Source: a plasmid
DNA length: 64,000 nt
NCBI RefSeq assembly: GCF_058153355.1
Contig: NZ_JBLWLY010000002.1
Direction: 5' to 3' (one strand)
Position numbers and translations under genes: made by a program. The notes beneath the pieces are model-generated. The model had not been told where the DNA came from. It was given only the letters and a program-made list of their open reading frames with translations, and ran no database searches. Of this stretch, positions 3,501 through 43,144 are shown one piece after another; the stretch's first letter is position 1; each line of letters opens with the position of its first letter.

Positions 3501-3848
3501 TAATCCTCTCCCACAAAGTGAATTAAATGAATATATAATGCGTTCGAAGTATATGTATTGAGCTGTCATACTGAGAAACAAACCTTAGGGCAGCACAATT
3601 AAAGCCAGAAACAACTATGCAAGAAATTCACCGTCATACTGATGCTGCATCGTGGTGACACTGTCTGTCACTTTCATGTTGACTGAACAACTCTGCTGCG
3701 AAGAAGGTGTACCGCCGGCGGGATTTGATTGTCCGGCGTCTAGCTTTCACTTCCCTGATGGAACTGAAAGTTGTTATGACCGGTCAGCTTGCCCTGTCCG
3801 CAGGACATGAGGTGCTGTGACGGACAGCACCAGTAACGGAAAGTGACA

Positions 3849-4259
3849 ATGAAAATGAATACTGCGCTGATAGTTGCACTAATGTGTATGTGGTATGCGG
3901 TACCCGCTGCTGCAAAAGAGACTTTACTGGCTATGCCACGTAATTCAACAGAACATTGCTATGCGGAGATTAATGTGCACGGACCATATGGGGTGTATTT
4001 CCGAGTGGTCCCGCATACCCCCGGGGGAAAGAGCTGGGTCGAATGTAACAGTGACTACTATTACTCTGATAAACCACCGGGAGTACAGATACTCGGAACC
4101 CGTGCAGGGTGTCGGGTATACGGAATCTGCGGGACCACCTCGACACTGCATGTGGCTGGAAGAGGGGTTGTGTGTATTAAAAATATATGCAGTCCACGTG
4201 GGATGATAATTCACAGGATACGGAAACGTCCTGTAGTGGCTGTAAGCGATGAGATGTGA
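3849..4259 (+). CDS. secreted cysteine-rich protein of unknown function
   Basis: ORF 3843..4259; ATG at 3849; N-terminal signal-peptide-like segment ending AAAKE; six Cys in the predicted mature part. Confidence 0.5.
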   Translation: MKMNTALIVALMCMWYAVPAAAKETLLAMPRNSTEHCYAEINVHGPYGVYFRVVPHTPGGKSWVECNSDYYYSDKPPGVQILGTRAGCRVYGICGTTSTLHVAGRGVVCIKNICSPRGMIIHRIRKRPVVAVSDEM

Positions 4260-4312
4260 TCTTACCCAGCAATAGTGGACACGCGGCTAAGTGAGTAAAC
4301 TCTCAGTCAGAG

Positions 4313-4475
4313 GTGACTCACATGACAAAAACAGTATCAACCAGCAAAAAAACACGTAAACAGCATTCGCCTGAATTTCGCAGTGAAGCCCTGAAGCTTG
4401 CTGAACGCATCGGTGTTGCTGCCGCAGCCCGTGAACTCAGCCTGTATGAATCTCAGCTCTATGCGTGGCGCAGCA
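4313..4475 (+). pseudogene. IS3-family orfA 5' fragment, truncated by IS66 end
   Basis: N-terminus MTKTVSTSKKTRKQHSPEFRSEALKLAERIGV is IS3 OrfA-like; reading frame runs into the IS66 terminal repeat starting at 4476. Confidence 0.6.
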
Positions 4476-4686
4476 GTAAGCGGCTCGCCAGAACCGTATT
4501 GATATTTACTGAGAGCTCAGATCAACTTTCCAGGGCAACAGATCGCGTACCCGGTTTGCCGGCCAGTCCTGGATATGTTCAATGACGTAACGCAGCCACT
4601 TTTCTGGCTCCACATTGTTCAGACGGCATGTGCCGATCAGCGAGTACAACACCGCAGCATGTTCACCACCGCTGTCAGAACCCGCG

Positions 4687-6511
4687 AGTCGAGTCAGCCG
4701 GAGAGAATTTCACTCCCCGGCTGCTCACGGAACCGTACGTGACACTCTCGCGTCATACGGCTCTTGATCACTCATTTGATGCACGTAGTAAATACCAGTG
4801 AACAAATAGCTTCGGATACTCCTTCCTTACCAGCGTCAGCTTTCGCTGAGCCTTCCGGTTCGAAAGTCTGTATTTAGACTGCATCCACTTGAGCAGACGT
4901 GACTGCATTGCACTCCACAGTCGATAGTTGAAATTTCTGGACCAGAACTTTCCGTAGTACTCGATCCAGCCTCTCACTATCGCATTGTAGCGCCTCGCAA
5001 AATCCAGCAAACTCTCAGCTGTTGAGCGATGTATACGCCACTTCTTGATTGTTTCTGTTATTTTGCGCATTGCTGCATTTGACGCACCCGGCATGCATTT
5101 TCGGTACAGTTCGCCTTTGAAATTCTTCAGCGTACGCACTTTGAAGTCATATCCGAGAAAGGTGAAACTCGTTGCGACGTTTCTCCTTTTAAACGTGTCA
5201 ATGTAGGCGATATTCGTTTTCCCTGCATTCAGGACCAGCCCGACTTCCGAGAAGCGCTCCGATAACCTGTTCTTCAGCCTTGTTGCATCACTCATTCGTG
5301 AACAATGTACTACAATATCGTCAGCGTACCTCTCAAACGGTACCCCCCGATATTCTCTTTCCATCCACAAATCAAATGCATAGTGAAGGAACAAGTTAGC
5401 AAGTAGTGGACTAATGACCCCGCCCTGCGGAGTGCCTCGTGTTCGGGTTATTAATTCTCCATTTTCACAACTCTGCATTGGCGCTTCCATCCAGCGTCGA
5501 CAGTACAGGATGACCCATTTAGGCATCCCGTGGTGTTCCAGAGCTTTGAGCACCAGATCATGTCTCACATGGTCGAAAAACGCACTGATGTCCACTTCCA
5601 GTATCCAGCTATAACGCCAGCACCGGATGGCACATTGTTTCAGAGCGTCATGAGCTGATTTGCCTGGTCGGTAACCATATGAATCAGCATGGAAAATCGG
5701 GTCAAGCTTTTCTTCCATGAAAAGTTTTATCGCTCCCTGAGCAATTCGATCGGATACTGTTGGGATCCCCAGAATGCGTTCCTTGCCATTCGACTTCGGG
5801 ATCCGTTTTTCCAGCACTGGTGGCGGAAACCATGTTCCCGAACATAGCCGGTTCCAGATCTTGTATAGATTGCCATCACGTTGCTGGTCGAACATTTTCA
5901 AAGTCTGCCCGTCGCATCCGGGGGCTCCCTTGTTGCGACGCACATCCAGATATGATGCCCAGACCAGTGCTTTTGGTATTTCAAATGATTTTCGTTGCAT
6001 CAGTTACGTCATCCCCTTTTGGGTTGTGTCTTCTGCAATGAATGTGATCCCCATCCCTTCGCTCCAGACCCATTACAGATCTTTCATCACTACTACGAAT
6101 GGGTCCGCCCCTGTTTCCCGATACGTGCCGGAAACAGGTTCTCACGTTCCCTGAGATGGTCTGGCCCGGGATCCTGCTGCCTTCACACCGGATGCCGCGC
6201 AGTCAGTAAGCAGGTGTCTTCTGCGCTTATCAGGGGACGGCTGTACGGCCCCATTTTGACATCATCTAAGATTTCGATGCTTCATCGGACAGTTTACTTT
6301 CGTTCAGCTTCCCGAACCCCACGTGACAGTAGATCTCTGCCTTTTCCCGAGTCGCTCACCACCTCATTCCTTAGAATGAAGCAGCACCGGGTCGTTTGGT
6401 CAGTGCTCCTGTAAACCCTGACCGGAGGGCCCACCTCCACCCACCTCAGAGCATGGATAACTTATGCTGCAATTTTCACATTGTTGCCATAAGTACTCCT
6501 TCGTGACACAC
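4687..6511 (-). mobile_element. bacterial group II intron, copy 1
   Basis: 5' GTGTG and 3' ...AC termini; domain V-like hairpin gagccgtatgacgcg...cacgtacggttc after the IEP; interrupts tnpC between codons for GRKNWL and FAGSDSG. Confidence 0.8.
4768..6000 (-). CDS. group II intron-encoded reverse transcriptase/maturase (no endonuclease domain)
   Basis: 410 aa with RT motifs including YADD (RYADDIVV) and a maturase-like C-terminus. Confidence 0.85.
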   Translation of the reverse strand: MQRKSFEIPKALVWASYLDVRRNKGAPGCDGQTLKMFDQQRDGNLYKIWNRLCSGTWFPPPVLEKRIPKSNGKERILGIPTVSDRIAQGAIKLFMEEKLDPIFHADSYGYRPGKSAHDALKQCAIRCWRYSWILEVDISAFFDHVRHDLVLKALEHHGMPKWVILYCRRWMEAPMQSCENGELITRTRGTPQGGVISPLLANLFLHYAFDLWMEREYRGVPFERYADDIVVHCSRMSDATRLKNRLSERFSEVGLVLNAGKTNIAYIDTFKRRNVATSFTFLGYDFKVRTLKNFKGELYRKCMPGASNAAMRKITETIKKWRIHRSTAESLLDFARRYNAIVRGWIEYYGKFWSRNFNYRLWSAMQSRLLKWMQSKYRLSNRKAQRKLTLVRKEYPKLFVHWYLLRASNE

Positions 6512-7943
6512 AGAGCCAGTTTTTCCGGCCTACGGCCACTCCCCGTAAGGCGTTCTCTGCGATGTTGTTGTCGATTTCCACCCAGCCATTACTGCAGTAC
6601 ACGTTCAGTGCATCCCACTGTTTCAGCAGGTATGCGAACGCTTTTGCCGTGTCCGAGTGACGCGACAGTGTTTTCATCTGTTGCTGTATCCAGTCATACA
6701 GTGACTGCATCAGTGGCGCGGCTCTGGCTTTTCTTGCCGCCAGACGCTGTTCTGCTGAACAGCCCCGGACCTCTGCCTCGATGGCATACAGTTCACCGAT
6801 ACGCTGCAGGGCTTCCGTGGTGATGTCGGTGGGCACTCTTGCATGCACATCGTGGATTTTTCTCCGGGCATGAGCCATACATGCGGCTTCCGTTATTCTG
6901 CCGGATTCGTACAACGCCCGGTAACCACCGTAAGCATCGGCCTGAAGCACTCCGCTGTAACCGGCCAGATGATTCTGTGGATGGATACCTTTCCGGTCCG
7001 GGCTGTACGCGAACCAGACCGCCGGAGGCATTTCCGAACCGGCATTCCTGTCATCCCGGACATACGTCCAGATATATCCTGTTTTCGCCTTCTTCCTGCT
7101 CGGTGCCAGCACTTTTACTGGTGTGTCATCAGTGTGAACCTTGCGGGTGTTCATCACATAACGGTACAGGGCATCATTCAGCGGAGTCATTAACTGGCAG
7201 CACGCGTCAACCCAGTTGGAGAGTAACGTACGGCTCAGTTCGACCCCCTGACGGGCAAAGATTTCACTCTGACGATACAGTGGCAGGTGTTCGCAGTATT
7301 TTCCCGTTAACACGCGGGCAAGTAACCCCGGGCCCGCGATACCACGCTCTATCGGACGGGACGGTGCCGGAGCTTCAACGATGCAGTCACATTTTGTACA
7401 GGCTTTTTTTACCCGTTCTGTGCGGATCACTTTCAGAGCGCTGCTCACCAGTTCCAGTTGTTCTGCGCTGACTTCCCCCAGATAATCCAGCTCACCGCCA
7501 CACTCCGGGCAACAGCTTTCTTCTGGCTCCAGGCGATTTATTTCGCGGGGCAGATGCTCCGGTAACGGGCGACGATGACGAGACTGTCGTAACTGGCGGG
7601 GAACCCGGAACTCCACCTTGCAGGAGTTTGCACTGACAGTTGTCTGAGTAGATAGAGACGGAGTAAGAGCCGCCACCGGTTCTTTCTGCTCATCCGGCGT
7701 TATCTCCACAGGTAATAATTCAACGCCAGCGTCAGAAGGGGTTGTTACCGGAAGACGCCGTGATATACGCCCTTCGTTTTGCCAGAGTCTGAGCCATTTG
7801 AAAATAACATTATCATTAACGCCATTTTCTCGTGCAATCTGGGCCACACAAGCTCCGGGTTGTGATGCCAGTTCAACCATACGAAGTTTGAATTCATTCG
7901 AATGCTTTTTACGAGGTTCTTTTCGCCAGTCCTGTAATTCCAT
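6512..7943 (-). pseudogene. IS66 orfA-tnpC in-frame fusion, interrupted at 3' end by the intron
   Basis: N-terminus matches orfA of copy at 25452, then jumps at [19 protein letters not shown] into the middle of tnpC; tnpB absent; downstream tnpC exon at 4506..4686. Confidence 0.7.
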
Positions 7944-7993
7944 ACTCAGGTGTCCGTCTGTGTCAGATGGGCGTCTAAGTTACCAATTCTTGT

Positions 7994-8311
7994 CTAATGG
8001 CTACATACGGCAGTTGGTTTACGCTTACCAACTACACCTTTCAGTTCGGTAAAATCCGACAGGCCCCGCAGACCGGGCTGATGCCGCTGGCGGAACATGA
8101 CCTCCTGCTCTGCACCATACTGTAGCTTCCATTCGCGAACCCGCCGTTGCATTGTTCTTCGAAGGCTGTTGGGGTACTGACCGGGATATTTATCCTGTAG
8201 CATCTCCAGCAGAGTTGTTGGTGTTAGAGCAGGCCTCTCTTTCAACAGAGGAACAAGCATGCTGTCCCACACAGCTTCAGTAATAATGCCGGTATCAGTT
8301 TTTATCATCAC
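7994..8311 (-). pseudogene. short fragment, possibly from an IS transposase
   Basis: 105-aa ORF ending at the IS66 terminus; assignment is a guess from its position among IS elements. Confidence 0.3.
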
Positions 8312-8701
8312 TCTGTTTGCTGTTTAACCAGACTGGTGTGATTACTGATGCAGTGAAGACCTTCCCGCATCCTGACTCACACAGCGATCGACCCTTTGTG
8401 TCCTGCCCTGGACCTGTCGGTTGCCGGAAGCGCCTTCATGCGAGGTGTCTCCTCACCGATGCGCGTGACTCAAGAAGGGCCTGACGGCTTGTCTCGTTAC
8501 TGTCCTGTCCGGGTTATCTGTCTGGAGATTCAACTCTGTTTCCTCACAGGAGAATGAGATGAACGCATCCCCCAACATTAAATCCGGAGCACAGTGATGA
8601 ATAAAGGGGGAAATCAGAGAGGTGTGGAGCCTCGCAGATTTCCGGCATCATTGTGCCCAATACGGGATGCATAAAGCTCCCTCAGACTGGAGACTCCACA
8701 A

Positions 8702-9721
8702 ATGAAATATACACCGGTTGGCGTTGATATCGCAAAACATCTGATTCAGGTTCACTTCATTGATGAGAACACAGGTGAAGTGGTGGATAAGCAACTTCGC
8801 GGCAGAGATTTTCTTGAATATTTCAGCAACCGGGAACCCTGCCTGATTGGTATGGAGGCCTGTGGAGGCTCTCAGCACTGGGCACGGGAGCTGACAAAGC
8901 TGGGGCATAAAGTCCGCTTGTTACAGGCCCGCTTCGTTAAGGCATTCGTCATGGGAAACAAGAACGACGTGATGGATGCCCGGGCTATCTGGATGGCGGT
9001 TCAGCAGCCCGGTAAAGAAATTGCCGTCAAAACAGAAGAACAGCAGTCGGTACTGGTTCTGCATCGTACCCGCATGCAACTGGTGAAGTTCCGGACCGCA
9101 CAAATTAACGCCCTACACGGGACGTTACTGGAGTTTGGTGAAACCATCCACAAAGGTCGGGCAGCGATGGAGCGGGAGTTCCCAGAAGCACTGGAACGAA
9201 TGAAAGAGAGACTGCCACCGTATCTCATCACGGTACTGGAAAACCAGTATAAGCGGTTGAATGAGCTGGACTCCCTGATAGAAGACATCGAAAAACAGCT
9301 TGCCAGCGTGGCGAAACAGAATGAGACCTGTAAGCGGTTGCTGGATATTTCTGGCGTTGGGCCACTTATTGCGACGGCAGCGGTGGCCACCATGGGGGAA
9401 GCATCAGCGTTTAAATCAGGGCGAGAGTTCGCGGCTTATGTTGGTCTGGTGCCCAAACAGACTGGCTCAGGAGGGAAAATCCGCCTGCTGGGGATAAGCA
9501 AACGTGGTGATACATATCTGCGAACCCTGTTTATTCATGGCGCAAGGGCGGCAGCATTACTGACCAAAGAACCTGGTCCGTGGATAACCGAACTGAAAAA
9601 ACGTCGTCCAGCCAGTGTGGCTATCGTCGCCATGGCAAACAAGCTGGCACGAACAGTATGGGCGATAGCTGCCCATGACCGTAAGTATGACAGGAACCAT
9701 GTCAGTATCAGACCATATTAA
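8702..9721 (+). CDS. IS110-family transposase
   Basis: 339 aa with N-terminal GVDIAKH and typical IS110 C-terminal region (VAMANKLARTVWAI). Confidence 0.8.
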   Translation: MKYTPVGVDIAKHLIQVHFIDENTGEVVDKQLRGRDFLEYFSNREPCLIGMEACGGSQHWARELTKLGHKVRLLQARFVKAFVMGNKNDVMDARAIWMAVQQPGKEIAVKTEEQQSVLVLHRTRMQLVKFRTAQINALHGTLLEFGETIHKGRAAMEREFPEALERMKERLPPYLITVLENQYKRLNELDSLIEDIEKQLASVAKQNETCKRLLDISGVGPLIATAAVATMGEASAFKSGREFAAYVGLVPKQTGSGGKIRLLGISKRGDTYLRTLFIHGARAAALLTKEPGPWITELKKRRPASVAIVAMANKLARTVWAIAAHDRKYDRNHVSIRPY

Positions 9722-25266: not shown

Positions 25267-25451
25267 CAGTTTAGTACGGGTAAATTTTTTACGCAGAAGA
25301 GCCTTACCAGACTTGTCTTGACAATGAATGTGGAAGGAATGCTTTCCGAGATCGATACCAATAAGGTAAGCGTAAACTGACCGCCGTATGTAGCCATTAA
25401 GCCTGTATTGGTAACGTAGGTGCCCACCTTTTCAACTAGTGGACACCTGTT

Positions 25452-25871
25452 ATGGAACAGAAAGCATTATCCGCAGAACCCCGCAGATCATTTTCAAATG
25501 AGTTTAAACTTCAAATGGTTAAACTGGCTTCACAACCAGGAGCCTCTGTTGCCCGTATTGCCCGGGAACACGATATCAATGATAACCTGCTGTTCAAATG
25601 GCTCAGGCTCTGGCAGAACGAAGGGCGCATATCGCGGCGTCTTCCGGTAACAACCTCTTCTGACACTGGCGTTGAATTATTACCTGTGGAGATAACGCCG
25701 GATGAGCCGAAAGAACCGGTGGCTGCTCTTACTCCGTCTTTATCTACTCAGACTACAGTTAGTGCCAGCTCCTGCAAGGTGGAGTTCCGTCACGGTAACA
25801 TGACGCTGGAAAATCCTTCACCAGAGCTGCTCACAGTGTTGCTCCGTGAACTGACCGGGAGGGGACGATGA
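25452..25871 (+). CDS. IS66 OrfA
   Basis: 139 aa, IS66 orfA-like (FKLQMVKLASQPGASVARIARE). Confidence 0.8.
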   Translation: MEQKALSAEPRRSFSNEFKLQMVKLASQPGASVARIAREHDINDNLLFKWLRLWQNEGRISRRLPVTTSSDTGVELLPVEITPDEPKEPVAALTPSLSTQTTVSASSCKVEFRHGNMTLENPSPELLTVLLRELTGRGR

Positions 25872-26218
25872 TCTCACTCCCGTCAGGCACCCGCATCTGG
25901 CTCGTTGCTGGGATAACCGATATGCGTAAGTCTTTCAACGGGCTGGGTGAACAGGTACAGCATGTGCTGAATGATAATCCCTTCTCCGGTCACCTGTTCA
26001 TCTTCCGTGGCCGACGGGGTGACATGATTAAAATCCTGTGGGCTGATGCTGATGGTCTGTGCCTGTTCACCAGACGCCTGGAGGAAGGCCAGTTTATCTG
26101 GCCTGCTGTGCGTGACGGCAAGGTATCCATTACCCGCTCGCAACTGGCAATGCTCCTCGATAAGCTGGACTGGCGTCAGCCAAAAACATCCCGCCTTAAC
26201 GCACAGACAATGTTGTAA
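25868..26218 (+). CDS. IS66 TnpB
   Basis: 116 aa, LPSGTRIWLVAGITDMRKSFNGL. Confidence 0.8.
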   Translation: MISLPSGTRIWLVAGITDMRKSFNGLGEQVQHVLNDNPFSGHLFIFRGRRGDMIKILWADADGLCLFTRRLEEGQFIWPAVRDGKVSITRSQLAMLLDKLDWRQPKTSRLNAQTML

Positions 26219-26248
26219 AAATGTCATGGCCGGATTATAAAAACGGCC

Positions 26249-27840
26249 ATGAATCAAAAATACCTCATTCGCATTGCAGAACTGGAATGCCAGCTCCGTC
26301 AGAAAGACCAGCAACTGAGTCTGGTTGAAGAGACGGAGGCCTTCCTGCGCTCTGCACTGGCCCGCGCCGAAGAAAAGATCGAAGAAGATGAACGGGAAAT
26401 AGAACATCTGCGGGCTCAGATAGAAAAACTGCGCCGGATGCTGTTCGGTACCCGTTCTGAAAAACTGCGTCGTGAAGTTGAACAGGCTGAGGCCCTGCTG
26501 AAACAACGCGAACAGGACAGTGATCGTTACAGTGGGCGGGAAGACGATCCGCAGGTTCCCCGCCAGTTGCGACAGTCTCGTCATCGTCGCCCGTTACCGG
26601 AGCATCTGCCCCGCGAAATAAATCGCCTGGAGCCAGAAGAAAGCTGTTGCCCGGAGTGTGGCGGTGAGCTGGATTATCTGGGGGAAGTCAGCGCAGAACA
26701 ACTGGAACTGGTGAGCAGCGCTCTGAAAGTGATCCGCACAGAACGGGTAAAAAAAGCCTGTACAAAATGTGACTGCATCGTTGAAGCACCGGCACCATCC
26801 CGTCCGATAGAGCGTGGTATCGCGGGCCCGGGGTTACTTGCCCGCGTGTTAACGGGAAAATACTGCGAACACCTGCCACTGTATCGTCAGAGTGAAATTT
26901 TTGCCCGTCAGGGTGTCGAACTGAGCCGTGCATTACTCTCCAACTGGGTTGACGCGAGCTGCCAGTTAATGACGTCGCTGAATGATGCCCTGTACCGTTA
27001 TGTGATGAACAGCCGCAAAGTTCACACTGATGACACACCAGTAAAAGTGCTGGCACCGGGCAGGAAGAAGGCGAAAACAGGATATATCTGGACGTATGTC
27101 CGGGATGACAGGAATGCCGGTTCGCCAGAGCCTCCGGCGGTCTGGTTCGCCTACTCACCGGACCATCAGGGTAAACATCCGGAGCAGCACCTTAGTCCCT
27201 TCCGGGGTATCCTGCAGGCAGATGCGTTTAATGGTTACGATCGGCTGTTCAGTGCCGAACGAGAAGGCGGCGCGTTGACGGAAGCAGGATGCTGGGCTCA
27301 TGCGCGGCGCAAAGTCCACGATGTATATATCAGTACCAAAAGCGCGACAGCGGAAGAAGCACTGAAACTAATCGGTGAGCTGTACGCCATCGAGCACGAA
27401 ATACGCGGGTTGCCGGTGTCTGAACGCCTGGCGGTCAGGCAAATGCAGAGTAAACCGCTACTGACTTCCCTGTATAAGCTGATGCAGAGAAAGAACACAC
27501 GTTATCGAAAAAATGCCGTCTGAGAGATGCGTTCCGGTATATCAGGAAGCACTGGGTTGTGTTGTGCAATTTCAGTGATGATGGTCTGGCTGAGGCGGAT
27601 AATAATGCCGCGGAAAGAGCGCTTCGTGCAGTCTGTCTCGGAAAGAAAAACTTTATGTTCTTCGGCAGCGATCACGGTGGAGAGCGTGGTGCGCTACTGT
27701 ACGGGCTGACCGGCACCTGCCGACTGAACGGTATCGATCCGGAAGCGTATCTGCGCCATATCCTGAGCGTACTGCCGGAATGGCCTTCCAACCGTGTTGA
27801 CGAACTCCTGCCATGGAACGTAGCACTCACCAATAAATAA
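26249..27840 (+). pseudogene. IS66 TnpC transposase, frameshifted near 27520
   Basis: ORF 26249..27523 continues in another frame as ORF 27559..27840. Confidence 0.7.
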
Positions 27841-28086
27841 GCGTCAATACGGTGCTCCGTTGACGCTTACGGTGACGGGCTGTGCCTCCTGACCAAACGG
27901 CTGGAGCGTGGGCGTCAGCCCGTGATGGCAAAGTGTTCCTTCGGACACGGCAAAAGCGTTCGCATACCTGCTGAAACAGTGGGTATGCACTGAACGTGTA
28001 CTGCAGTAATGGCTGGGTGGAAATCGACAACAACATCGCAGAGAACGCCTTACGGGGAGTGGCCGTAGGCCGGAAAAACTGGCTCT

Positions 28087-29910
28087 GTGTGTCACGAAGG
28101 AGTACTTATGGCAACAATGTGAAAATTGCAGCATAAGTTATCCATGCTCTGAGGTGGGTGGAGGTGGGCCCTCCGGTCAGGGTTTACAGGAGCACTGACC
28201 AAACGACCCGGTGCTGCTTCATTCTAAGGAATGAGGTGGTGAGCGACTCGGGAAAAGGCAGAGATCTACTGTCACGTGGGGTTCGGGAAGCTGAACGAAA
28301 GTAAACTGTCCGATGAAGCATCGAAATCTTAGATGATGTCAAAATGGGGCCGTACAGCCGTCCCCTGATAAGCGCAGAAGACACCTGCTTACTGACTGCG
28401 CGGCATCCGGTGTGAAGGCAGCAGGATCCCGGGCCAGACCATCTCAGGGAACGTGAGAACCTGTTTCCGGCACGTATCGGGAAACAGGGGCGGACCCATT
28501 CGTAGTAGTGATGAAAGATCTGTAATGGGTCTGGAGCGAAGGGATGGGGATCACATTCATTGCAGAAGACACAACCCAAAAGGGGATGACGTAACTGATG
28601 CAACGAAAATCATTTGAAATACCAAAAGCACTGGTCTGGGCATCATATCTGGATGTGCGTCGCAACAAGGGAGCCCCCGGATGCGACGGGCAGACTTTGA
28701 AAATGTTCGACCAGCAACGTGATGGCAATCTATACAAGATCTGGAACCGGCTATGTTCGGGAACATGGTTTCCGCCACCAGTGCTGGAAAAACGGATCCC
28801 GAAGTCGAATGGCAAGGAACGCATTCTGGGGATCCCAACAGTATCCGATCGAATTGCTCAGGGAGCGATAAAACTTTTCATGGAAGAAAAGCTTGACCCG
28901 ATTTTCCATGCTGATTCATATGGTTACCGACCAGGCAAATCAGCTCATGACGCTCTGAAACAATGTGCCATCCGGTGCTGGCGTTATAGCTGGATACTGG
29001 AAGTGGACATCAGTGCGTTTTTCGACCATGTGAGACATGATCTGGTGCTCAAAGCTCTGGAACACCACGGGATGCCTAAATGGGTCATCCTGTACTGTCG
29101 ACGCTGGATGGAAGCGCCAATGCAGAGTTGTGAAAATGGAGAATTAATAACCCGAACACGAGGCACTCCGCAGGGCGGGGTCATTAGTCCACTACTTGCT
29201 AACTTGTTCCTTCACTATGCATTTGATTTGTGGATGGAAAGAGAATATCGGGGGGTACCGTTTGAGAGGTACGCTGACGATATTGTAGTACATTGTTCAC
29301 GAATGAGTGATGCAACAAGGCTGAAGAACAGGTTATCGGAGCGCTTCTCGGAAGTCGGGCTGGTCCTGAATGCAGGGAAAACGAATATCGCCTACATTGA
29401 CACGTTTAAAAGGAGAAACGTCGCAACGAGTTTCACCTTTCTCGGATATGACTTCAAAGTGCGTACGCTGAAGAATTTCAAAGGCGAACTGTACCGAAAA
29501 TGCATGCCGGGTGCGTCAAATGCAGCAATGCGCAAAATAACAGAAACAATCAAGAAGTGGCGTATACATCGCTCAACAGCTGAGAGTTTGCTGGATTTTG
29601 CGAGGCGCTACAATGCGATAGTGAGAGGCTGGATCGAGTACTACGGAAAGTTCTGGTCCAGAAATTTCAACTATCGACTGTGGAGTGCAATGCAGTCACG
29701 TCTGCTCAAGTGGATGCAGTCTAAATACAGACTTTCGAACCGGAAGGCTCAGCGAAAGCTGACGCTGGTAAGGAAGGAGTATCCGAAGCTATTTGTTCAC
29801 TGGTATTTACTACGTGCATCAAATGAGTGATCAAGAGCCGTATGACGCGAGAGTGTCACGTACGGTTCCGTGAGCAGCCGGGGAGTGAAATTCTCTCCGG
29901 CTGACTCGAC
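28087..29910 (+). mobile_element. bacterial group II intron, copy 2
   Basis: same sequence as copy 1 in opposite orientation; begins gtgtg after ...aaaaactggctct and ends ...gactcgac before tcgcgggttctgac. Confidence 0.8.
28598..29830 (+). CDS. group II intron-encoded reverse transcriptase/maturase
   Basis: 410 aa, identical to ORF 4768..6000. Confidence 0.85.
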   Translation: MQRKSFEIPKALVWASYLDVRRNKGAPGCDGQTLKMFDQQRDGNLYKIWNRLCSGTWFPPPVLEKRIPKSNGKERILGIPTVSDRIAQGAIKLFMEEKLDPIFHADSYGYRPGKSAHDALKQCAIRCWRYSWILEVDISAFFDHVRHDLVLKALEHHGMPKWVILYCRRWMEAPMQSCENGELITRTRGTPQGGVISPLLANLFLHYAFDLWMEREYRGVPFERYADDIVVHCSRMSDATRLKNRLSERFSEVGLVLNAGKTNIAYIDTFKRRNVATSFTFLGYDFKVRTLKNFKGELYRKCMPGASNAAMRKITETIKKWRIHRSTAESLLDFARRYNAIVRGWIEYYGKFWSRNFNYRLWSAMQSRLLKWMQSKYRLSNRKAQRKLTLVRKEYPKLFVHWYLLRASNE

Positions 29911-30156
29911 TCGCGGGTTCTGACAGCGGTGGTGAACATGCTGCGGTGTTGTACTCGCTGATCGGCACATGCCGTCTGAACAATGTGGAACCAGAAAAAT
30001 GGCTGCGTTACGTCATTGAGCATATCCAGGACTGGCCGGCAAACCGGGTACGTGATCTGTTGCCCTGGAAAGTTGATCTGAGCTCTCAGTAAATATCAAT
30101 ACGGTTCTGACGAGCCGTTTACTCAGAAAGAGAGCGATACGCTACAGCTGGAGCTG

Positions 30157-32096: not shown

Positions 32097-32490
32097 TTGG
32101 AGTCATCACCCTTTTCCTCTTGGTGTTATCCCATCAATATTTCGGCCACGTGGTTTACGTTTATTATTGATAATAATCAATGAACTGCCGAGTAAAAATA
32201 ACTGCTGATATACGGGATCCCATGTCAACTCCCGTATTATATATTATACCCCAATAGGGTTACATTATTAATGTATGTAAATGTTAATTAATCAAAACAT
32301 TAATCAATTGTTATATAATGCATCACAGGTAAACACCAAATCAACGCAAGTATAATATAGTAAAAATGGTTCATATTTTGGTACTGTTTGGTTTTTTCGT
32401 TTTTAACGGGTGGATATTTGTCTATTTTTTTTTTAAATTATTTGTGTGCTTTCCATAAATAATGGGGTGTAAGTTATTAACTCTAAATTA

Positions 32491-33033
32491 GTGAGTATTA
32501 AATATATTGTGTTTATCTCTGCTTTATTAATTTCCAATACGGGAAAGGGGGGCGAACAGCGAGTTGTTTTCAATGTGGATATTGTAGGTTCTGCCTGTCA
32601 TGTGGTGGTGGATGCGGACGGTTTCGGCAACAGTGGCCGACTGATATTCGGGACTTACCGTAAATCCACTGGCGCACCTGTATTGCCACGTGACTTCGTT
32701 GTGCGCTTGTATGAGTCCGGCGCTACGGTTCAAGGGTGTTCAGCCTTTCGAGCGGGGCAGGTCGCAACTCTGGATTTTGGTAACCCGGGCCAGCTGGACG
32801 CAAAGGGAGTGGTCACTCGCGGTGCTGGTGATGGTATTCGCGTGGATGTACGGGCGGTGGATACACAGGCGGATTATCGCGGACGTCTGACTCAGGACAG
32901 TCATTCGGTGAATTACCCGGTGGAGTTTGCTGTTAAGGGACAGTTCCGTTTTCGTGCACAGCCGGTGTTTCCGGTGAACGTGAAGGCAGGGGAATACACA
33001 GGGGCGCTGACCTTTGTGGTCACGTATCAGTAA
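32491..33033 (+). CDS. K88/F4-type minor fimbrial subunit (FaeC-like position)
   Basis: 180-aa ORF immediately upstream of the usher gene; AT-rich promoter region upstream. Confidence 0.55.
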
Positions 33034-33044
33034 CAGAGGAAAGT

Positions 33045-35480
33045 GTGTGTGCAGGAAAGAAGGGGGCAGAGCTGGTTTTGTTCTTGTTTTTTCGTCGGGC
33101 CGCGCTTGCTGTATCAGTCGCTTTCGCCAGTGCCACAGGTGTTGCAGGTGAAAAACTGGATATGTCCTTTATTCGGGGTGGTGCCGGGATTAATCCGGAA
33201 GTCTGGGCAGCGCTGAACGGCAGCTATGCACCGGGACGTTATTTGGTTGACCTGTCCCTGAACGGGAAGGAAGCCGGGAAACAGATACTGGATGTGACAC
33301 CACAGGACAGTGATGAACTGTGCCTGACAGAGGCATGGCTGACGAAGGCCGGGATTTACGTCAGTGCAGATTACTTTCGTGAGGGATATGACGCCACACG
33401 GCAGTGTTATGTGCTGACAAAAGCGCCGTCAGTGAAGGTGGATTTTGATGTTTCCACTCAGAGTCTGGCGCTGTCCCTTCCCCAGAAGGGGCTGGTGAAG
33501 ATGCCGGAGAACGTGGACTGGGATTACGGGACTGGTGCATTTCGCGTGAACTATAACGCGAACGCCAACACCGGCCGGAATAACACCTCGACCTTTGGCT
33601 CGGCAGATCTGAAGGTTAATATTGGGCACTGGGTGGTGAGTTCTTCTGCCTCAGCCAGCGGTGGTGACAGCGGGGATAACTCCGCCACGATAAACGCGTT
33701 CACGGCCACCCGGGCCATCCGCGCACTGAGTGCGGACCTGACGGTCGGGAAAACATCCACCGGGAGCAGTCTGCTGGGCAGTACGGGAACGTACGGAGTG
33801 TCGCTGAGCCGGAACAACAGCATGAAGCCGGGCAATCTGGGGTATACCCCGGTGTTCAGCGGCATTGCGAACGGGGCGTCGAGGGTGACACTGACACAGA
33901 ACGGGCGGTTGCTGCATTCGGAGATGGTGCCGGCAGGTCCGTTCTCCATCACGGATGTGCCGCTGTACACCAGTGGGGATGTGACCATGAAAATCACCGG
34001 CGAGGACGGTCGTGAGCAGACTCAGGTCTTCCCGTTGTCGGTGATGGCCGGGCAGTTAAGCCCGGGACAACACGAGTTCAGCGTGGCAGTCGGTTTGCCT
34101 GACGATGACAGTGACCTGAAAGGCGGCGTGTTTGCGGCGTCATACGGTTACGGTCTGGATGGACTGACGCTGCGCACCGGGGGCGTGTTTAACCGGGACT
34201 GGCAGGGTATTAGCGCCGGGGCTGTCCTGGGGCTGAGTTATCTGGGGGCAGTGTCTGCTGACGGGGCTTATGCCATGGCGAAATACCGTGACGGCAGCCG
34301 CAGCGGAAATAAGGTGCAGTTATCCTGGAGTAAACAACTGGAGATGACGAACACCGGACTGCGGGTGAGCTGGTCACGGCAGAGTGAGGAATATGAGGAC
34401 ATGTCCTCCTTTGACCCGACAGAGCTGTGGTCGCAGTCAAATCATGGTCGCCGGCCGAAGGATGAATGGAATGCCGGTATCAGTCAGTCGGTGGGGGGGC
34501 TGTTCAGTCTGTCGGTGTCCGGCTGGCAGCGGAGTTATTACCCGGCACAGATGACGGGCCGTTATCGGTACAGCGATGACAATGGTCTGGACACAGGGAT
34601 TACCGGTACCCTGAGCACACAGATTAAGGGCGTCAGTCTGAATCTGGGCTGGTCCGGCTCACGGAATTCGCAGGGAGAGAATAACAGGTCGGCGTCAGCC
34701 TCTATCTCGGTGCCATTCACGCTGTTTGAGCGTCGCTACAGCAGCAGTACGTCGGTGAGTACCAGCAAAGGCGGTGGCACGGGCTTCAGCACTGGCGTGT
34801 CCGGCTCGCTGAATGACCGTTTCAGCTATGGCTTGGGCGGCGGTCGTGATAGCGGTGGTGGTGTGAGTAGTTATCTAAACGCGTCGTACAGTGGTGACCG
34901 GGCTTATCTGAATGGTGCCCTGAACCACTCACAGTCCGGCGGAACCAGTGGTTCTGTATCAGTCAGCGGTTCGGTACTGGTCGTCCCGACGGCGAAAGAC
35001 ATTATGTTCAGCCGCACGACCGGGGACACCGTGGCCGTGGTGAACGTGAAGGATACACCGGGTGTGAAGGTGACGTTCGGTGACGGACAGACTGACAGCG
35101 ACGGCAACCTGGTGGTACCGCTGAACAGCTATGACTGGAACACGGTGACGATTGATGCGGGCACACTGCCGCTGAGCACCGAACTGACGAACACCAGTCA
35201 GAAGGTGGTGCCGACGGACAAGGCGGTGGTCTGGATGCCGTTTGATGCCCTGAAAGTCAAGCGTTACCTGCTGCAGGTGAAGCAGCGTGACGGTGAGTTT
35301 GTGCCAGGGGGAACCTGGGCACGTGACAGTAAGAACACACCGCTGGGCTTTGTAGCTAACAATGGTGTGCTGATGATTAACACGGTGGATGCGCCGGGTG
35401 ATATCACCCTAGGCCAGTGCCGGATACCTGCGGCCAGACTGCAGGATACTGAGAAACTACAGGAGATTACGTGTGAGTAA
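33045..35480 (+). CDS. fimbrial outer-membrane usher (FaeD-like)
   Basis: 811-aa ORF, usher-sized, between subunit and chaperone genes. Confidence 0.85.
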   Translation: MCAGKKGAELVLFLFFRRAALAVSVAFASATGVAGEKLDMSFIRGGAGINPEVWAALNGSYAPGRYLVDLSLNGKEAGKQILDVTPQDSDELCLTEAWLTKAGIYVSADYFREGYDATRQCYVLTKAPSVKVDFDVSTQSLALSLPQKGLVKMPENVDWDYGTGAFRVNYNANANTGRNNTSTFGSADLKVNIGHWVVSSSASASGGDSGDNSATINAFTATRAIRALSADLTVGKTSTGSSLLGSTGTYGVSLSRNNSMKPGNLGYTPVFSGIANGASRVTLTQNGRLLHSEMVPAGPFSITDVPLYTSGDVTMKITGEDGREQTQVFPLSVMAGQLSPGQHEFSVAVGLPDDDSDLKGGVFAASYGYGLDGLTLRTGGVFNRDWQGISAGAVLGLSYLGAVSADGAYAMAKYRDGSRSGNKVQLSWSKQLEMTNTGLRVSWSRQSEEYEDMSSFDPTELWSQSNHGRRPKDEWNAGISQSVGGLFSLSVSGWQRSYYPAQMTGRYRYSDDNGLDTGITGTLSTQIKGVSLNLGWSGSRNSQGENNRSASASISVPFTLFERRYSSSTSVSTSKGGGTGFSTGVSGSLNDRFSYGLGGGRDSGGGVSSYLNASYSGDRAYLNGALNHSQSGGTSGSVSVSGSVLVVPTAKDIMFSRTTGDTVAVVNVKDTPGVKVTFGDGQTDSDGNLVVPLNSYDWNTVTIDAGTLPLSTELTNTSQKVVPTDKAVVWMPFDALKVKRYLLQVKQRDGEFVPGGTWARDSKNTPLGFVANNGVLMINTVDAPGDITLGQCRIPAARLQDTEKLQEITCE

Positions 35481-36255
35481 GCGTAACGCAGTAACGACGT
35501 TTTTCACTAACCAGGTGACAAAAGCACTGGGAATGACGCTGGCGCTGATGATGAGCTGTCAGAGTGCGGTGGCTTCCCTGGCGGCAGACCAGACCCGCTA
35601 TATCTTTCGCGGGGACAAGGATGCGCTGACCATCACGGTCACCAACAATGACAAGGGACGTACCTTTGGTGGTCAGGCATGGGTGGACAATATCGTGGAG
35701 AAAGACACCCGTCCGACTTTTGTGGTGACGCCGTCCTTCTTCAAGGTGAAGCCGAATGGTCAGCAGACACTGCGTATCATCATGGCCTCGGACCATCTGC
35801 CGAAGGATAAAGAGTCGGTGTACTGGCTGAACCTGCAGGATATTCCGCCGGCTCTGGAGGGCAGCGGTATTGCAGTGGCGCTGCGTACGAAACTGAAACT
35901 GTTCTATCGCCCGAAGGCACTGCTTGAAGGTCGCAAGGGGGCAGAAGAAGGCATCAGTCTGCAGAGCCGCCCGGATGGCAGGACCATGCTGGTGAACACC
36001 ACGCCATACATTTTTGCGATTGGCAGCCTGCTGGACGGAAACGGAAAGAAAATTGCCGCGGATAACGAGACGGCGCAGAAACTGCTGATGTTCATGCCGG
36101 GTGATGAAGTACAGGTGAAGGGAAATGTGGTGAAAGTGGACTCCCTGAATGATTACGGTGAACTGCAGACATGGACGATTAACCAGAAGAAATCAGCAAT
36201 ATCGTCTGCACAGAAGTCATCTGATACAGAGGGTAATTCATCTGATAAAAAATAA
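35473..36255 (+). CDS. periplasmic fimbrial chaperone (FaeE-like)
   Basis: 260 aa with signal peptide; start overlaps usher stop. Confidence 0.8.
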   Translation: MSKRNAVTTFFTNQVTKALGMTLALMMSCQSAVASLAADQTRYIFRGDKDALTITVTNNDKGRTFGGQAWVDNIVEKDTRPTFVVTPSFFKVKPNGQQTLRIIMASDHLPKDKESVYWLNLQDIPPALEGSGIAVALRTKLKLFYRPKALLEGRKGAEEGISLQSRPDGRTMLVNTTPYIFAIGSLLDGNGKKIAADNETAQKLLMFMPGDEVQVKGNVVKVDSLNDYGELQTWTINQKKSAISSAQKSSDTEGNSSDKK

Positions 36256-36289
36256 TCGCCCTCCGGCATACGGAACAGAGGGGTAATAA

Positions 36290-36781
36290 ATGAAGAAAAC
36301 AATGATGGTAGTCGCCTTGGCCCTGAGTGCACTCAGTATTCAGTCAACACTTGCCGCTGAATACAGCGAGAAAGCGCAGTATCTGGGGGTGGTGAATGGC
36401 CAGGTGGTGGGTAACAGCGTGGTGAAGGTAACCCGCACACCGACAGATCCGGTGCTGTACCGGAGTGGAGACACGACGCCTCTTCCCGACCGCCTGACCA
36501 TCCGTAATGCAGAATCCAGAGCAGCATCTGGTGGCTTGGCGTATATCACGGTGAAACAGGTGCTGCCTGATAACGGGGAAGCCCGCATCACCCTGAAGAC
36601 GGCCCTGATGGTTGATGGAAAGAAAGTGGCAATCAGCGCCAGACAGCAGGGTGAGGATATGGTGATAACTTTGCCGGAAGCACAGAAGCAGATTGAATTA
36701 AGAACGGATGCACCGGCAGAGCTGGAAGTACCGGTCAGTTACCGGGGAAATCTGCAGATAGCGCTGCAGGTGGAGGACTGA
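36290..36781 (+). CDS. minor fimbrial subunit (FaeF-like)
   Basis: 163 aa with signal peptide MKKTMMVVALALSALSIQSTLA. Confidence 0.6.
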   Translation: MKKTMMVVALALSALSIQSTLAAEYSEKAQYLGVVNGQVVGNSVVKVTRTPTDPVLYRSGDTTPLPDRLTIRNAESRAASGGLAYITVKQVLPDNGEARITLKTALMVDGKKVAISARQQGEDMVITLPEAQKQIELRTDAPAELEVPVSYRGNLQIALQVED

Positions 36782-36994
36782 GGATTCATTTCCTTTATAA
36801 ATGCAGTACATCCCGTGATTCCGGAGCGGGTCATATTGGTAAAGGGATTTACCGTCTTTTAAAACGGGAATAACGTAAAACAATTCTGAGTTAAACACTG
36901 TGTTTAATGAAATGCGGTTATTTAAATGAATCCGCAGGGGATGGTTTTGCGGTAATTCCGGGGAAATAAGGATTACTGATTCAGTTTATTATTT

Positions 36995-37819
36995 ATGAAA
37001 CGTCAAGGTGATTATTTTATGAAAAAGACTCTGATTGCACTGACTGTGGCTGCTTCTGCCGCAGTATCCGGCTCTGCTATGGCGTGGAATCCCGCTGGCC
37101 TTGGTGGCAACGGTGGCACCTTTAGCATGAGTGGTACTCTGAGCAAAGCTGCGAAAGTAGTACCGTGGGCAGTGGAAATAGGTGCTCCGGTAACAGCGCT
37201 TGATGTGACCGTTAAACCTGACCAGAAGAATGTTTTCATTCTTTTAGAAAAAGACATACCGATACTTGGCATTCGTAGCGCCCCGCAGGGTTTCATAGGG
37301 GAAAAGGGTATTGCCCCACAAATCGATTATAATAAAGCCGCTAATTTTGATTATATGGATAAGGGGAATTTACCTGCGGAAATTGATGTCACATCATCTG
37401 ATGGTAAGAAAATTGGTACTCTGGCGTTCGTAATGCGAGTTGCCTGTCAGGCCAGCGAAAAGAAGGGTGAAAGCGACGACAAGTTAAATAGTAGCATGCT
37501 ATTCGCTGGTTCAAAAGGTAAAGCTTTCTTTGGTGGAGTTGCCAAAGATGAAAAGGGTATCTGGAGTGACGCCGCTGCCTATACTTGGGCTACCCACCTT
37601 TTTAGCAGTATTGCTGACTCGTGGGATACTAAAATTCCTTACACGGCGGGCGATGCAGATGAAACCGACTTCAGTGATGGAAACAGTATTTACCGAGGTT
37701 ACTATGCATCCGGCCTTGTCAAGGGTATGCCCATGGAACTAACTCTTGATCAGACTATAACGTCTGCTACCCCAATTCCGTGGAAAGCTTCTCTGCCAAT
37801 TGTTATCTCCTACATGTAA
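36995..37819 (+). CDS. major fimbrial subunit (FaeG-like)
   Basis: N-terminus MKKTLIALTVAASAA...AWNP resembles K88 FaeG MKKTLIAL...AW; 274-aa ORF, probable start about 37020. Confidence 0.75.
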   Translation: MKRQGDYFMKKTLIALTVAASAAVSGSAMAWNPAGLGGNGGTFSMSGTLSKAAKVVPWAVEIGAPVTALDVTVKPDQKNVFILLEKDIPILGIRSAPQGFIGEKGIAPQIDYNKAANFDYMDKGNLPAEIDVTSSDGKKIGTLAFVMRVACQASEKKGESDDKLNSSMLFAGSKGKAFFGGVAKDEKGIWSDAAAYTWATHLFSSIADSWDTKIPYTAGDADETDFSDGNSIYRGYYASGLVKGMPMELTLDQTITSATPIPWKASLPIVISYM

Positions 37820-38032
37820 TTCAGCAGTGTTCAGCAGTAAGCACTTACCCGTTTACTGCTGATTAAAACTTCAGAACACAGTTTCCGGTGACCCGACCTG
37901 AATATACAGAACCGGTATGTCAGAACAGGTGTTTTTCTGTTGGAGTGTCTTGTGACGCATATTGGTTCTGTGCTTTTTTTAACAAAATTATTTTATTGAG
38001 CTGTTTTGTTTTATCCGGATAAACAGGAATGA

Positions 38033-38836
38033 ATGCCGATGAAAATAACGCATCATTATAAATTCTTCCTTTCTGCTGTTATTTTGGTAACCATATTTTA
38101 TTCGGCAGTGCCATATGCAAATATTCTTGATGGCGGCGAAATTCAGTTTAATGGCTATGTTACTGATGAAGCACCCAAATGGGCCTGGCAGATAAGTTCT
38201 CCCGACCAGACTTGGTCTGTGGATACTGCCGATGCCCGTACAGAGAACGGGCAACTGGTTTTTAATTTGCATGATAAAGGGGCTCTGCCATTTCTGGAGG
38301 GACATCTGCATGATGTGGCTGAGCGCGGTGGTCCCGGATTCACGCCATTTATTACTTTCAGCAGTAACGGACAGCCTTTTACTGTGACGGAAGGAAATGG
38401 TGCCTCAGCACAGCACTTTCGCGCCTCTGTCCCGGTGCGTGACCCGGAGACGGGGAACGTGTCGGGACAGCTTTTTTTTACCCTGAATCAGGGAATGGCG
38501 GTCAGTACCGGCAGACAGGACGACGGGGCATCCGTACCGGCTGGCATGTCGCTGGTCAGTGGACAGAGTGTGACGGATGTACAGCCGGGAAGTCTGCCAC
38601 AGGGGCTGAAAGCCCGACTCTCTTCCCTGTTACTGATGAATCAAAATTTTGGCAATGGCATGAATGCGGTGGATAACGGACAGGTTATCAACCAGGGGAT
38701 ACTGACTGACGGTCGGGTGATGGATCTGGCTGCGGCATATGCCTCTGCGGTGTCGGATTTTGAACTGCGGTTGCCGGCAGAGGGTACACCTGCAGCATGG
38801 CAGGCGGGGCTGAATGTGACGGTTACAGTACAGTGA
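38033..38836 (+). CDS. minor fimbrial subunit (FaeH-like)
   Basis: 267 aa with signal peptide; position after major subunit. Confidence 0.6.
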
Positions 38837-38865
38837 TGGTTGCAGGGATATAAGGAGAGAAGAGA

Positions 38866-39630: not shown

Positions 39631-39953
39631 GGAGCAGGAGTGCGTTTTATAATCCGGAGATAAGGAACGTCGGTTACTGTAAGATTGGGGAGTTGTGTTG
39701 ATAGCGGGAGTGGCTGGAATAAGTGGTATACATAGATAAAAATTAAAACTATCACTATTTGAGGAGTTTTTTCCTGCTCTCCATGGGCTTTATAGCTCAC
39801 AAAAAATAGAATAATATTATTAATTATTCTGCTTTTTTATGGGCATTCCCCCTTGAAAAATGAGTTTGTGCCAGAATATTATTAATGTGTTTTTTGTGAT
39901 TTACTAATCAAGGATTGCTGAATAGCATCCAGTACTGAATATTTTGTTCAATT

Positions 39954-43102: not shown

Positions 43103-43144
43103 CGCGCCGCCTTCGTAAGCGGCTCGCCAGAACCGTATTGATAT

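What the first reader, a model, noticed from the sequence alone, without database searches (positions are those of the whole stretch)
6512..7943. IS66 derivative with orfA fused in frame to tnpC and tnpB deleted
The reading frame starts as OrfA and, after CKVEFR, continues with [17 protein letters not shown], which is internal TnpC sequence. About 760 bp (orfA 3' end, all of tnpB, tnpC 5' end) are missing. The element also combines one IS66 type at its left end with another at its right end, so it is a recombinant as well as a deletion derivative.
Basis: seen in the sequence. Interest (0 to 1): 0.3.

Follow-up and report, generated by a model that had tools for sequence, protein, structure and literature searches.

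The report
Broken hybrid IS66 insertion sequence remnant
This is a decayed jumping-gene copy of the IS66 family, pieced together from two related elements, missing its middle gene and split by a self-splicing intron; it is ordinary debris on an insertion-sequence-rich virulence-type plasmid.

Summary
ORF 6462..7943 (minus strand, 493 aa) starts as IS66-family TnpA (aa 1-113 of 139). At window 7605|7606 it continues in frame as TnpC from about residue 109 of 537. Missing are 764 bp relative to copy B (25366..27870) and 785 bp relative to the closest full-length relative: the tnpA 3' end, all of tnpB and the tnpC 5' end.

The recombinant claim also holds. Positions 8028..7044 are copyB/L002-type (95-100% identity) and 7034..4476 are ISCro1-type (100% to the copies at 43115 and 61171). 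The crossover lies in a shared 9-bp stretch, 7035..7043.

The whole element is 4476..8028. A complete group II intron (4688..6511, same strand) interrupts its tnpC, so the DNA ORF ends inside the intron. Splicing would give a 537-aa HTH / zinc-finger / DDE chimera.

The two ends come from different IS types (16 of 30 bases match) and there is no 8-bp target duplication. Neither junction occurs in 5,426 complete E. coli genomes or 72,556 plasmids. The only other copy is a draft E. coli contig that is 100% identical, flanks included.

It is most likely an immobile pseudo-element. Interest is low.

The parts
4476..8028 (-). Whole hybrid, internally deleted IS66-family element, including the nested group II intron
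   Evidence: GTAAGCG termini at both ends. Self-BLAST and alignments. Flanks GCGCAGCA and CAACTACA differ, so there is no 8-bp target duplication.
7944..8028 (-). Left inverted repeat (IRL, L002/copyB type) and the leader upstream of tnpA'
   Evidence: IRL is GTAAGCGTAAACCAACTGCCGTATGTAGCC. It matches the copy B IRL at 37 of 45 positions, and the segment 7606..8028 that contains it is 95.5% identical to L002. The simple sigma-70 scan found no promoter-like site.
7606..7943 (-). tnpA' : codons 1-113 of 139, containing HTH_Tnp_1
   Evidence: 108 of 113 aa identical to the TnpA of the full-length IS in NZ_CP022166. Pfam PF01527 at aa 11-62.
7600..7611 (-). Deletion junction (between 7606 and 7605): GAGTTCCG|GGTTCCCC, hybrid codon CG|G
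   Evidence: Alignment gap of 785 bp relative to L002_IS and 764 bp relative to copy B, with no overlapping base at the junction. The junction is absent from the E. coli complete genomes and the plasmid collection.
7044..7605 (-). copyB/L002-type tnpC segment (TnpC from about residue 109 up to the crossover; zf-IS66 and the start of the DDE domain)
   Evidence: 93-100% identity to copy B and 95-99% to L002_IS in 100-bp windows; 51-67% to the ISCro1 type.
7035..7043 (-). Crossover interval between the two IS66 types (shared GCCGGTTCG)
   Evidence: Four-way alignment. The element follows copyB/L002 up to T7044 and follows the ISCro1 type from 7034 onward. This hybrid join was not found at 95% identity or more across the junction in either collection.
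6512..7034 (-). ISCro1-type tnpC segment (rest of the DDE domain), forming exon 1 up to the intron
   Evidence: 100% identity in every 100-bp window from 7029 downward to the copy starting at 43115. BLAST gives 98.9% over 6512..7064, which runs past the crossover.
4688..6511 (-). Group II intron inserted in the NWLF|AGS motif of tnpC, in the same orientation as the gene
   Evidence: Rfam RF01999 at 6322..6438 (91.9 bits) and RF00029 at 4688..4765 (57.1 bits). The intron starts GTGTG. A 100% identical copy lies at 28087..29910. The flanks are contiguous in the intron-less copies at 43326/43327 and 61382/61383.
4768..6000 (-). Intron-encoded reverse transcriptase/maturase, 410 aa
   Evidence: Pfam RVT_1 (5e-41) and GIIM (2e-14).
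4476..4687 (-). Exon 2: tnpC 3' end (DDE_Tnp_IS66_C) and the ISCro1-type right inverted repeat (IRR)
   Evidence: 100% identical to 43115..43326 and 61171..61382. PF13817 at 9.7e-18. The spliced frame runs to the natural TnpC stop, giving 537 aa.
6462..7943 (-). The fused ORF as it stands in the DNA (493 aa); its last 16 codons are intron read-through

Best explanation
This is a defective, almost certainly immobile remnant of IS66-family insertion sequences. Three ordinary events built it; their order is unknown.

1. Two different IS66-family elements recombined inside tnpC, at a short conserved stretch (7035..7043). This joined the IRL / tnpA / tnpC-5' part of a copyB/L002-type element to the tnpC-3' / IRR part of an ISCro1-type element.
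2. An illegitimate internal deletion of about 764-785 bp removed the last 26 codons of tnpA, all of tnpB and the first 108 codons of tnpC. By chance it left tnpA and tnpC in frame.
3. A mobile group II intron retrohomed into the conserved NWLF|AGS site of tnpC.

Shown here: the anatomy, both junctions, the reading frame and the intron. Inferred: that the element cannot transpose. The grounds for that inference are as follows.
- It lacks TnpB, the TnpC N-terminal coiled-coil/leucine-zipper region and the TnpA C-terminus.
- Its two ends come from different IS types.
- It has no target-site duplication.
- It is seen only at this one locus.

If it is transcribed, unspliced RNA would give a 493-aa protein lacking the C-terminal element. 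Spliced RNA would give a 537-aa HTH / zinc-finger / DDE chimera.
For: - ORF and domains.
- Deletion junction, size and frame.
- Mosaic identity profile and crossover.
- Intron RNA domains, RT ORF, identical second copy and contiguous intron-less sites.
- The spliced frame restores the natural TnpC C-terminus.
- IRL and IRR match at 16 of 30 positions, against 22 of 30 for copy B and 30 of 30 for the ISCro1-type copy.
- No target-site duplication.
- Neither junction occurs in 5,426 complete E. coli genomes or 72,556 plasmids.
- The only identical fusion protein among 5.8 billion clusters is a single-member cluster. It comes from a draft E. coli contig that is 100% identical to window 9262..7045, flanking IS fragments included. 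That indicates the same locus inherited by descent, not a transposed copy.
- The neighbourhood is IS debris: a truncated IS3-family orfA fragment on one side, and an IS911 fragment and an IS110-family gene on the other.
- Other IS66 copies in the window are also rearranged, or (copy B) frameshifted.
Against: The fused frame is open, and after splicing it would contain a complete zinc finger, DDE domain and C-terminal element. Catalytic activity therefore cannot be excluded from sequence alone. The requirement for TnpB and full-length TnpA/TnpC rests on my recollection of Han et al. 2001 (IS679, J Bacteriol 183:4296); that paper could not be opened here. No expression or transposition data exist.
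Confidence: 0.9

Rival explanations
1. The in-frame TnpA-TnpC fusion is a working single-chain transposase. It would resemble the IS3-family OrfAB fusion or the single-ORF ISBst12 group of the IS66 family, and would make TnpB dispensable.
For: The reading frame is open, with HTH, zinc finger, a full DDE domain and the C-terminal element after splicing. Other in-frame tnpA-tnpC fusions exist elsewhere: P0002 and P0086. Single-ORF IS66 members do transpose (PMC12898284).
Against: There is one locus only, no target duplication, mismatched ends, and loss of the N-terminal 108 aa of TnpC. The other fusions are single or rare clusters. P0002 is itself truncated inside the DDE domain. A protein search can only recover in-frame fusions, so finding them is ascertainment bias. 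One deletion in three is expected to be in frame by chance.
Confidence: 0.03
2. The chimeric protein is retained as a trans-acting regulator or inhibitor of resident IS66 copies: a DNA-binding, non-productive transposase derivative.
For: It keeps the TnpA HTH and the TnpC zinc finger. From general knowledge, truncated transposase derivatives act as inhibitors in other IS families (IS50 Inh, IS1 InsA, IS911 OrfA).
Against: There is no conservation beyond one lineage. No promoter-like site was found in the leader. The gene is interrupted by an intron. The surrounding IS copies are themselves decayed.
Confidence: 0.05
3. The deletion and/or the hybrid join are assembly artefacts caused by the many IS66 repeats in this replicon.
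For: The window holds at least five IS66-related copies or fragments and two identical introns. That is a difficult assembly problem.
Against: A separate short-read draft contig (GCA_015332025.1, AAXEGZ010000144.1) is 100% identical across the deletion junction. It stops at 7045, exactly where the multi-copy ISCro1-type sequence begins. The crossover lies in only 9 bp of shared sequence between types that are 51-67% identical nearby, which is not where assemblers collapse repeats.
Confidence: 0.02

Closest known systems
Canonical three-gene IS66-family elements (tnpA-tnpB-tnpC; for example IS679, ISEc8/ISEc43-like, and the full copy in NZ_CP022166 between trbG and traV)
   Same: GTAAGCG termini. 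TnpA HTH (108 of 113 aa identical). TnpC zinc finger and DDE domain. The tnpA-side part is 95-99% identical at the nucleotide level.
   Different: It lacks 785 bp: the tnpA 3' end, all of tnpB and the tnpC 5' end. Its 3' part belongs to another IS66 type. It has no target duplication.
ISCro1-family IS66 elements (PGAP name; the window copy starting at 43115, the tnpB-tnpC-IRR part of the copy at 61171..63710, and NC_021815.1)
   Same: Positions 7034..6512 plus 4687..4476 (the tnpC 3' part and IRR) are 100% identical to the window's ISCro1-type copies and 95-100% identical, per 100-bp window, to NC_021815.1.
   Different: Only the distal tnpC segment and one end are of this type. The tnpA, tnpB and IRL of that type are absent.
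Bacterial group II introns that home into insertion-sequence genes (for example RmInt1 in ISRm2011-2, PMC1802570)
   Same: A complete intron with an RT/maturase ORF, domains D1-D4 and D5/6, a GUGYG 5' end, the same orientation as the host gene, a fixed site in a conserved transposase motif, and a second 100% identical copy at the same site.
   Different: It is a passenger of the remnant and not part of the fusion event. Splicing and mobility were not tested here.
ISBst12 group (single-ORF IS66-family members)
   Same: One long open frame carrying the IS66 DDE domain, with no tnpB.
   Different: The single frame here arises from a recent deletion within a three-gene element: flanking DNA is 95-100% identical to three-gene copies on both sides of a clean gap. 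The ORF also begins with a TnpA HTH, which, as I recall, ISBst12-type transposases lack (PMC12898284).

Membership tests
IS66 family (canonical) | DDE transposase TnpC with the IS66 catalytic domain (PF03050) and zinc finger (PF13005) | tested here: met
   PF03050 at 7e-101 and PF13005 at 8e-12 in the ORF. The full domain plus PF13817 is present in the spliced frame.
IS66 family (canonical) | tnpB accessory gene (PF05717) between tnpA and tnpC | tested here: not met
   The 764-785-bp gap covers all of tnpB. No PF05717 hit in the fused protein, although the model detects the TnpB of the full-length relative at 8.6e-37.
IS66 family (canonical) | Complete tnpA (HTH accessory protein) | tested here: not met
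   Only residues 1-113 of 139 remain, fused to TnpC. The HTH itself is retained.
IS66 family (canonical) | TnpC N-terminal coiled-coil/leucine-zipper region (PF13007) | tested here: not met
   TnpC residues 1-108 are deleted. PF13007 scores below its cut-off (21 bits against 22.9, no stretch passing on its own), whereas the intact TnpC proteins score 46.7 and 49.8 bits.
IS66 family (canonical) | Matching terminal inverted repeats starting GTAAGCG | tested here: inconclusive
   Both ends start with GTAAGCG and share CCGTAT. They come from different subtypes and match at only 16 of 30 positions, against 22 of 30 (copy B) and 30 of 30 (ISCro1-type copy).
IS66 family (canonical) | 8-bp target-site duplication | tested here: not met
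   Flanks are GCGCAGCA and CAACTACA.
IS66 family (canonical) | Transposition activity | not testable with these tools
   Only indirect evidence is available: a single locus, and the same flanks in the only other assembly that has it.
Group II intron (the nested element at 4688..6511) | Ribozyme domains (D1-D4, D5/D6), intron-encoded RT/maturase, GUGYG 5' end | tested here: met
   RF01999 at 91.9 bits and RF00029 at 57.1 bits. RVT_1 and GIIM. GTGTG at 6511..6507 on the minus strand.
ISBst12 group of the IS66 family | Naturally single-ORF element with its own matched ends, no tnpA or tnpB | tested here: not met
   The ORF starts with TnpA sequence 96% identical to a three-gene element. The gap is a clean recent deletion, and the ends are mismatched.

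The most novel reading that the evidence does not exclude
The spliced 537-aa TnpA'-'TnpC chimera could be an active, TnpB-independent single-chain IS66 transposase or a transposition regulator. That would mean an HTH fused directly to the zinc-finger/DDE core is enough for IS66-type DNA recognition, and that in-frame tnpB deletions (also seen in P0002 and P0086) form a recurrent route to simplified IS66 elements.
Probability: 0.03. Interest if true: 0.45.

Novelty: already known. Interest (0 to 1): 0.08.

Why it matters
It matters little beyond annotation. The locus should be annotated as a pseudo/hybrid IS66 element with a nested group II intron, not as an intact transposase. It adds one more example of recombination, deletion and intron invasion among IS66-family copies on an IS-rich pINV-like/F-like plasmid. 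The exact junctions (GGAGTTCCG|GGTTCCCC, and the hybrid join at 7035..7043) could serve as lineage markers for this plasmid. If the chimera were active against expectation, it would bear on the still unclear role of IS66 TnpB.

Tried and rejected
1. I looked for the same deleted element elsewhere. 100-131-bp queries across the deletion junction and across the crossover, against complete E. coli genomes and PLSDB plasmids, gave only half-length or non-hybrid matches. Whole-region queries gave only full-length elements in several joined pieces.

2. I considered microhomology-mediated deletion. A GTTCC pentamer lies next to each breakpoint, but both copies are retained and no base overlaps at the junction. 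The deletion is not a simple slippage between these repeats.

3. I tried to find the reciprocal products of the recombination. The flanks 3800..4475 and 8029..8700 have no second copy in the window.

4. The literature searches were unproductive. Han et al. 2001 on IS679 could not be opened. Searches for IS66 tnpB function and for group II introns in IS66 returned nothing directly relevant.

5. The sigma-70 promoter scan of the IRL leader found nothing, which is weak negative evidence.

6. I did not run the large genome or metagenome pattern scans, structure prediction or fold searches. The answer would not change the verdict.

Full report
**What is at the coordinates**

The ORF listing shows a single 493-aa ORF on the minus strand, 6462..7943. 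Pfam finds HTH_Tnp_1 at residues 11-62, the fold of IS66-family TnpA. This is followed by zf-IS66 (142-186) and DDE_Tnp_IS66 (200-480), the hallmarks of TnpC. No TnpB_IS66 domain is present. The leucine-zipper domain of TnpC scores below its cut-off.

**The deletion**

Self-BLAST of the window and comparison with full-length relatives show two matching blocks. Window 7606..8028 aligns with the IRL-tnpA part of copy B (25365..25789). Window 6777..7605 aligns with copy B 26554..27394. The element therefore lacks 764 bp of copy B. Relative to the closest full-length relative of the tnpA side, it lacks 785 bp; that relative is an IS66-family element inserted between trbG and traV in plasmid NZ_CP022166 (L002).

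On the minus strand the junction reads GAGTTCCG|GGTTCCCC, with no shared base at the breakpoint. In gene terms, 338 nt of tnpA are retained (112 codons plus 2 nt), and tnpC resumes at the third base of codon 109. The hybrid codon is therefore CGG (Arg) and the frame continues into TnpC.

The losses are as follows:
- TnpA residues 114-139.
- All 116 codons of TnpB, whose Pfam domain is readily detected in the relative.
- TnpC residues 1-108, which carry most of the coiled-coil/leucine-zipper region.

**The recombinant structure**

A 100-bp sliding comparison gives a clear two-part picture:
- From 8028 down to about 7050 the element is 91-99% identical to the L002 element. From 7780 down to about 7050 it is 92-100% identical to copy B. 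Copy B is only 59-83% identical over the outermost about 250 bp (7780..8029).
- From 7029 down to 6512, and again over 4687..4476, it is 100% identical to the ISCro1-type copy that starts at 43115, and 95-100% identical to an element annotated as ISCro1 family in NC_021815.1. The same segments match the copy at 61171 at 98.9-100%. In this part it is only 44-67% identical to the copyB/L002 type.

A four-way alignment puts the switch inside a 9-bp stretch common to all types, GCCGGTTCG (window 7035..7043). This lies in the codons for the conserved [10 protein letters not shown] motif.

Position 6512 is not an element end. Rfam finds group II intron domains on the minus strand at 6322..6438 (RF01999, 91.9 bits) and 4688..4765 (RF00029, 57.1 bits). 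Between them lies a 410-aa ORF with RVT_1 and GIIM domains.

The sequences flanking 4688..6511 are contiguous in the two intron-less ISCro1-type copies (43326/43327 and 61382/61383). The intron starts GTGTG at 6511. It sits in the same orientation as tnpC, within the codons for NWLF|AGS. The DNA ORF therefore runs 16 codons into the intron and stops.

Joining 6512 to 4687 restores the frame to the natural TnpC stop. That gives a 537-aa protein with a complete DDE domain and the DDE_Tnp_IS66_C element. The true element is 4476..8028.

**Is it a working IS?**

Several defining features fail:
- tnpB is absent, tnpA is truncated and the TnpC N-terminus is gone.
- Both termini start GTAAGCG, but they belong to different subtypes. 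They match at 16 of the first 30 positions, against 22 of 30 for copy B's own ends and 30 of 30 for the ISCro1-type copy.
- The 8 bp flanking each end differ (GCGCAGCA and CAACTACA). There is no target duplication, as expected if the two ends came from separate insertions.
- The simple scan found no sigma-70-like promoter in the leader; this is weak evidence.

From memory, Han et al. 2001 (J Bacteriol 183:4296) reported that mutations in each of the three IS679 ORFs abolish transposition. I could not open that paper here.

**Distribution**

Queries of 100 and 131 bp centred on the deletion junction and on the crossover found no record containing either junction. The collections searched were 5,426 complete E. 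coli genomes and 72,556 plasmids.

I also searched 5.8 billion protein clusters with the first 252 residues of the fusion. This returned one identical protein, P0001, a single-member cluster named "IS66 family transposase, partial". It lies on a 2,218-bp contig of E. coli draft assembly GCA_015332025.1. That contig is 100% identical to window 9262..7045, including the flanking IS fragments and part of an IS110-family gene. It ends exactly where the multi-copy ISCro1-type sequence begins.

This independently supports the reality of the deletion. It also shows the same locus inherited by descent, not a second transposed copy.

**Other fusions**

The same protein search turned up a few unrelated in-frame tnpA-tnpC fusions:
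- P0002 is 66% identical. Its element is about 75% identical at the DNA level. It has a 747-bp deletion with different breakpoints, is truncated inside the DDE domain, and lies near phage lysis-type genes in metagenome contigs.
- P0086 has an ISCro1-type TnpA joined near the start of TnpC.

These fusions are rare. P0002 at least is also decayed. A protein search can only recover in-frame cases. I read them as independent debris, not as a functional class, but they keep a small probability alive for the novel reading.

**Context**

The window is a plasmid segment with an F-type tra region and a K88/fae-like fimbrial operon. It is about 98% identical to Shigella/EIEC pINV-type plasmids, with no near-identical record in PLSDB.

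The element is embedded in IS fragments. A truncated IS3-family orfA (HTH_Tnp_1) lies at 4313..4475. On the other side are an unassigned stretch, an IS911 fragment and an IS110-family gene.

Other IS66 copies in the window are also rearranged:
- Copy B has a frameshift in tnpC.
- None of the copies checked has a target duplication.
- The copy at 61171..63710 combines ISCro1-type tnpB-tnpC with a different tnpA and has perfect 61-bp ends.
- A 141-bp copyB-type tnpC fragment abuts the end of the copy that starts at 43115.

**Verdict**

The object is an ordinary pseudo-element: a hybrid, internally deleted, intron-interrupted IS66-family remnant. The in-frame fusion is most simply a one-in-three accident. 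Interest is low. Its main use is correct annotation, and possibly as a lineage marker.

Noticed in passing
window 4688..6511 (-) and 28087..29910 (+): Two 100% identical copies of a group II intron with a 410-aa RT/maturase. Both sit at the same site (NWLF|AGS codons) of ISCro1-type tnpC sequences. The exon 2 sequences differ: 100% and 97.2% identity to the copy at 61171. Two identical intron-less target sites remain unoccupied at 43326/43327 and 61382/61383.
   Followed up: partly
window 27941..30122: A second intron-bearing ISCro1-type fragment containing only the last about 357 bp of the IS plus the intron. It lies 70 bp from the right end of copy B, in the opposite orientation to the element studied.
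   Followed up: partly
window 25366..27870 (copy B): This full-length copyB-type IS66 element has a frameshift in tnpC near codon 424: the frame-0 product ends ...LMQRKNTRYRKNAV* and the rest continues in another frame. It also has no 8-bp target duplication, so it too is probably defective.
   Followed up: partly
window 61171..63710 and 43115..about 45700: The two ISCro1-type copies are 99.8% identical through tnpC and tnpB but carry unrelated tnpA genes: 142 aa at 63136..63564 and a large ISCro1-like TnpA at 45083..45694. The switch is exactly at the tnpA/tnpB boundary. The 61171 copy has perfect 61-bp terminal inverted repeats and no target duplication.
   Followed up: partly
window 42974..43114 and 63730..63806: Short fragments of other IS66-type tnpC genes directly abut the ends of the ISCro1-type copies: 141 bp that is 100% identical to copy B, and 78 bp that is 87% identical. 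This suggests IS66-into-IS66 insertion or recombination.
   Followed up: no
L004 5916..7002 (JGI 3300027606 contig Ga0209370_1000846); also L005, L006: An independent in-frame tnpA-tnpC fusion (P0002, 336 aa) in an IS66 element about 75% identical at the DNA level. It has a 747-bp deletion with different breakpoints, is truncated in the DDE domain, and lies next to phage lysis-type genes (Glyco_hydro_19, DUF2514).
   Followed up: partly
window 8029..8700: A patchwork flank. Positions 8270..8552 are a 98.6%-identical IS911 (IS3 family) fragment. Positions 8029..8269 carry a 105-aa ORF (7994..8311, minus strand) with no Pfam hit. The IS110-family transposase gene at 8702..9721 appears intact.
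   Followed up: partly
window 32400..42900: A K88/F4-like fimbrial operon (faeD/E/H/I-like genes) plus a PAPS reductase-like gene. It is about 98% identical to Shigella sonnei/boydii and EIEC pINV plasmids. No near-identical plasmid is present in PLSDB.
   Followed up: no
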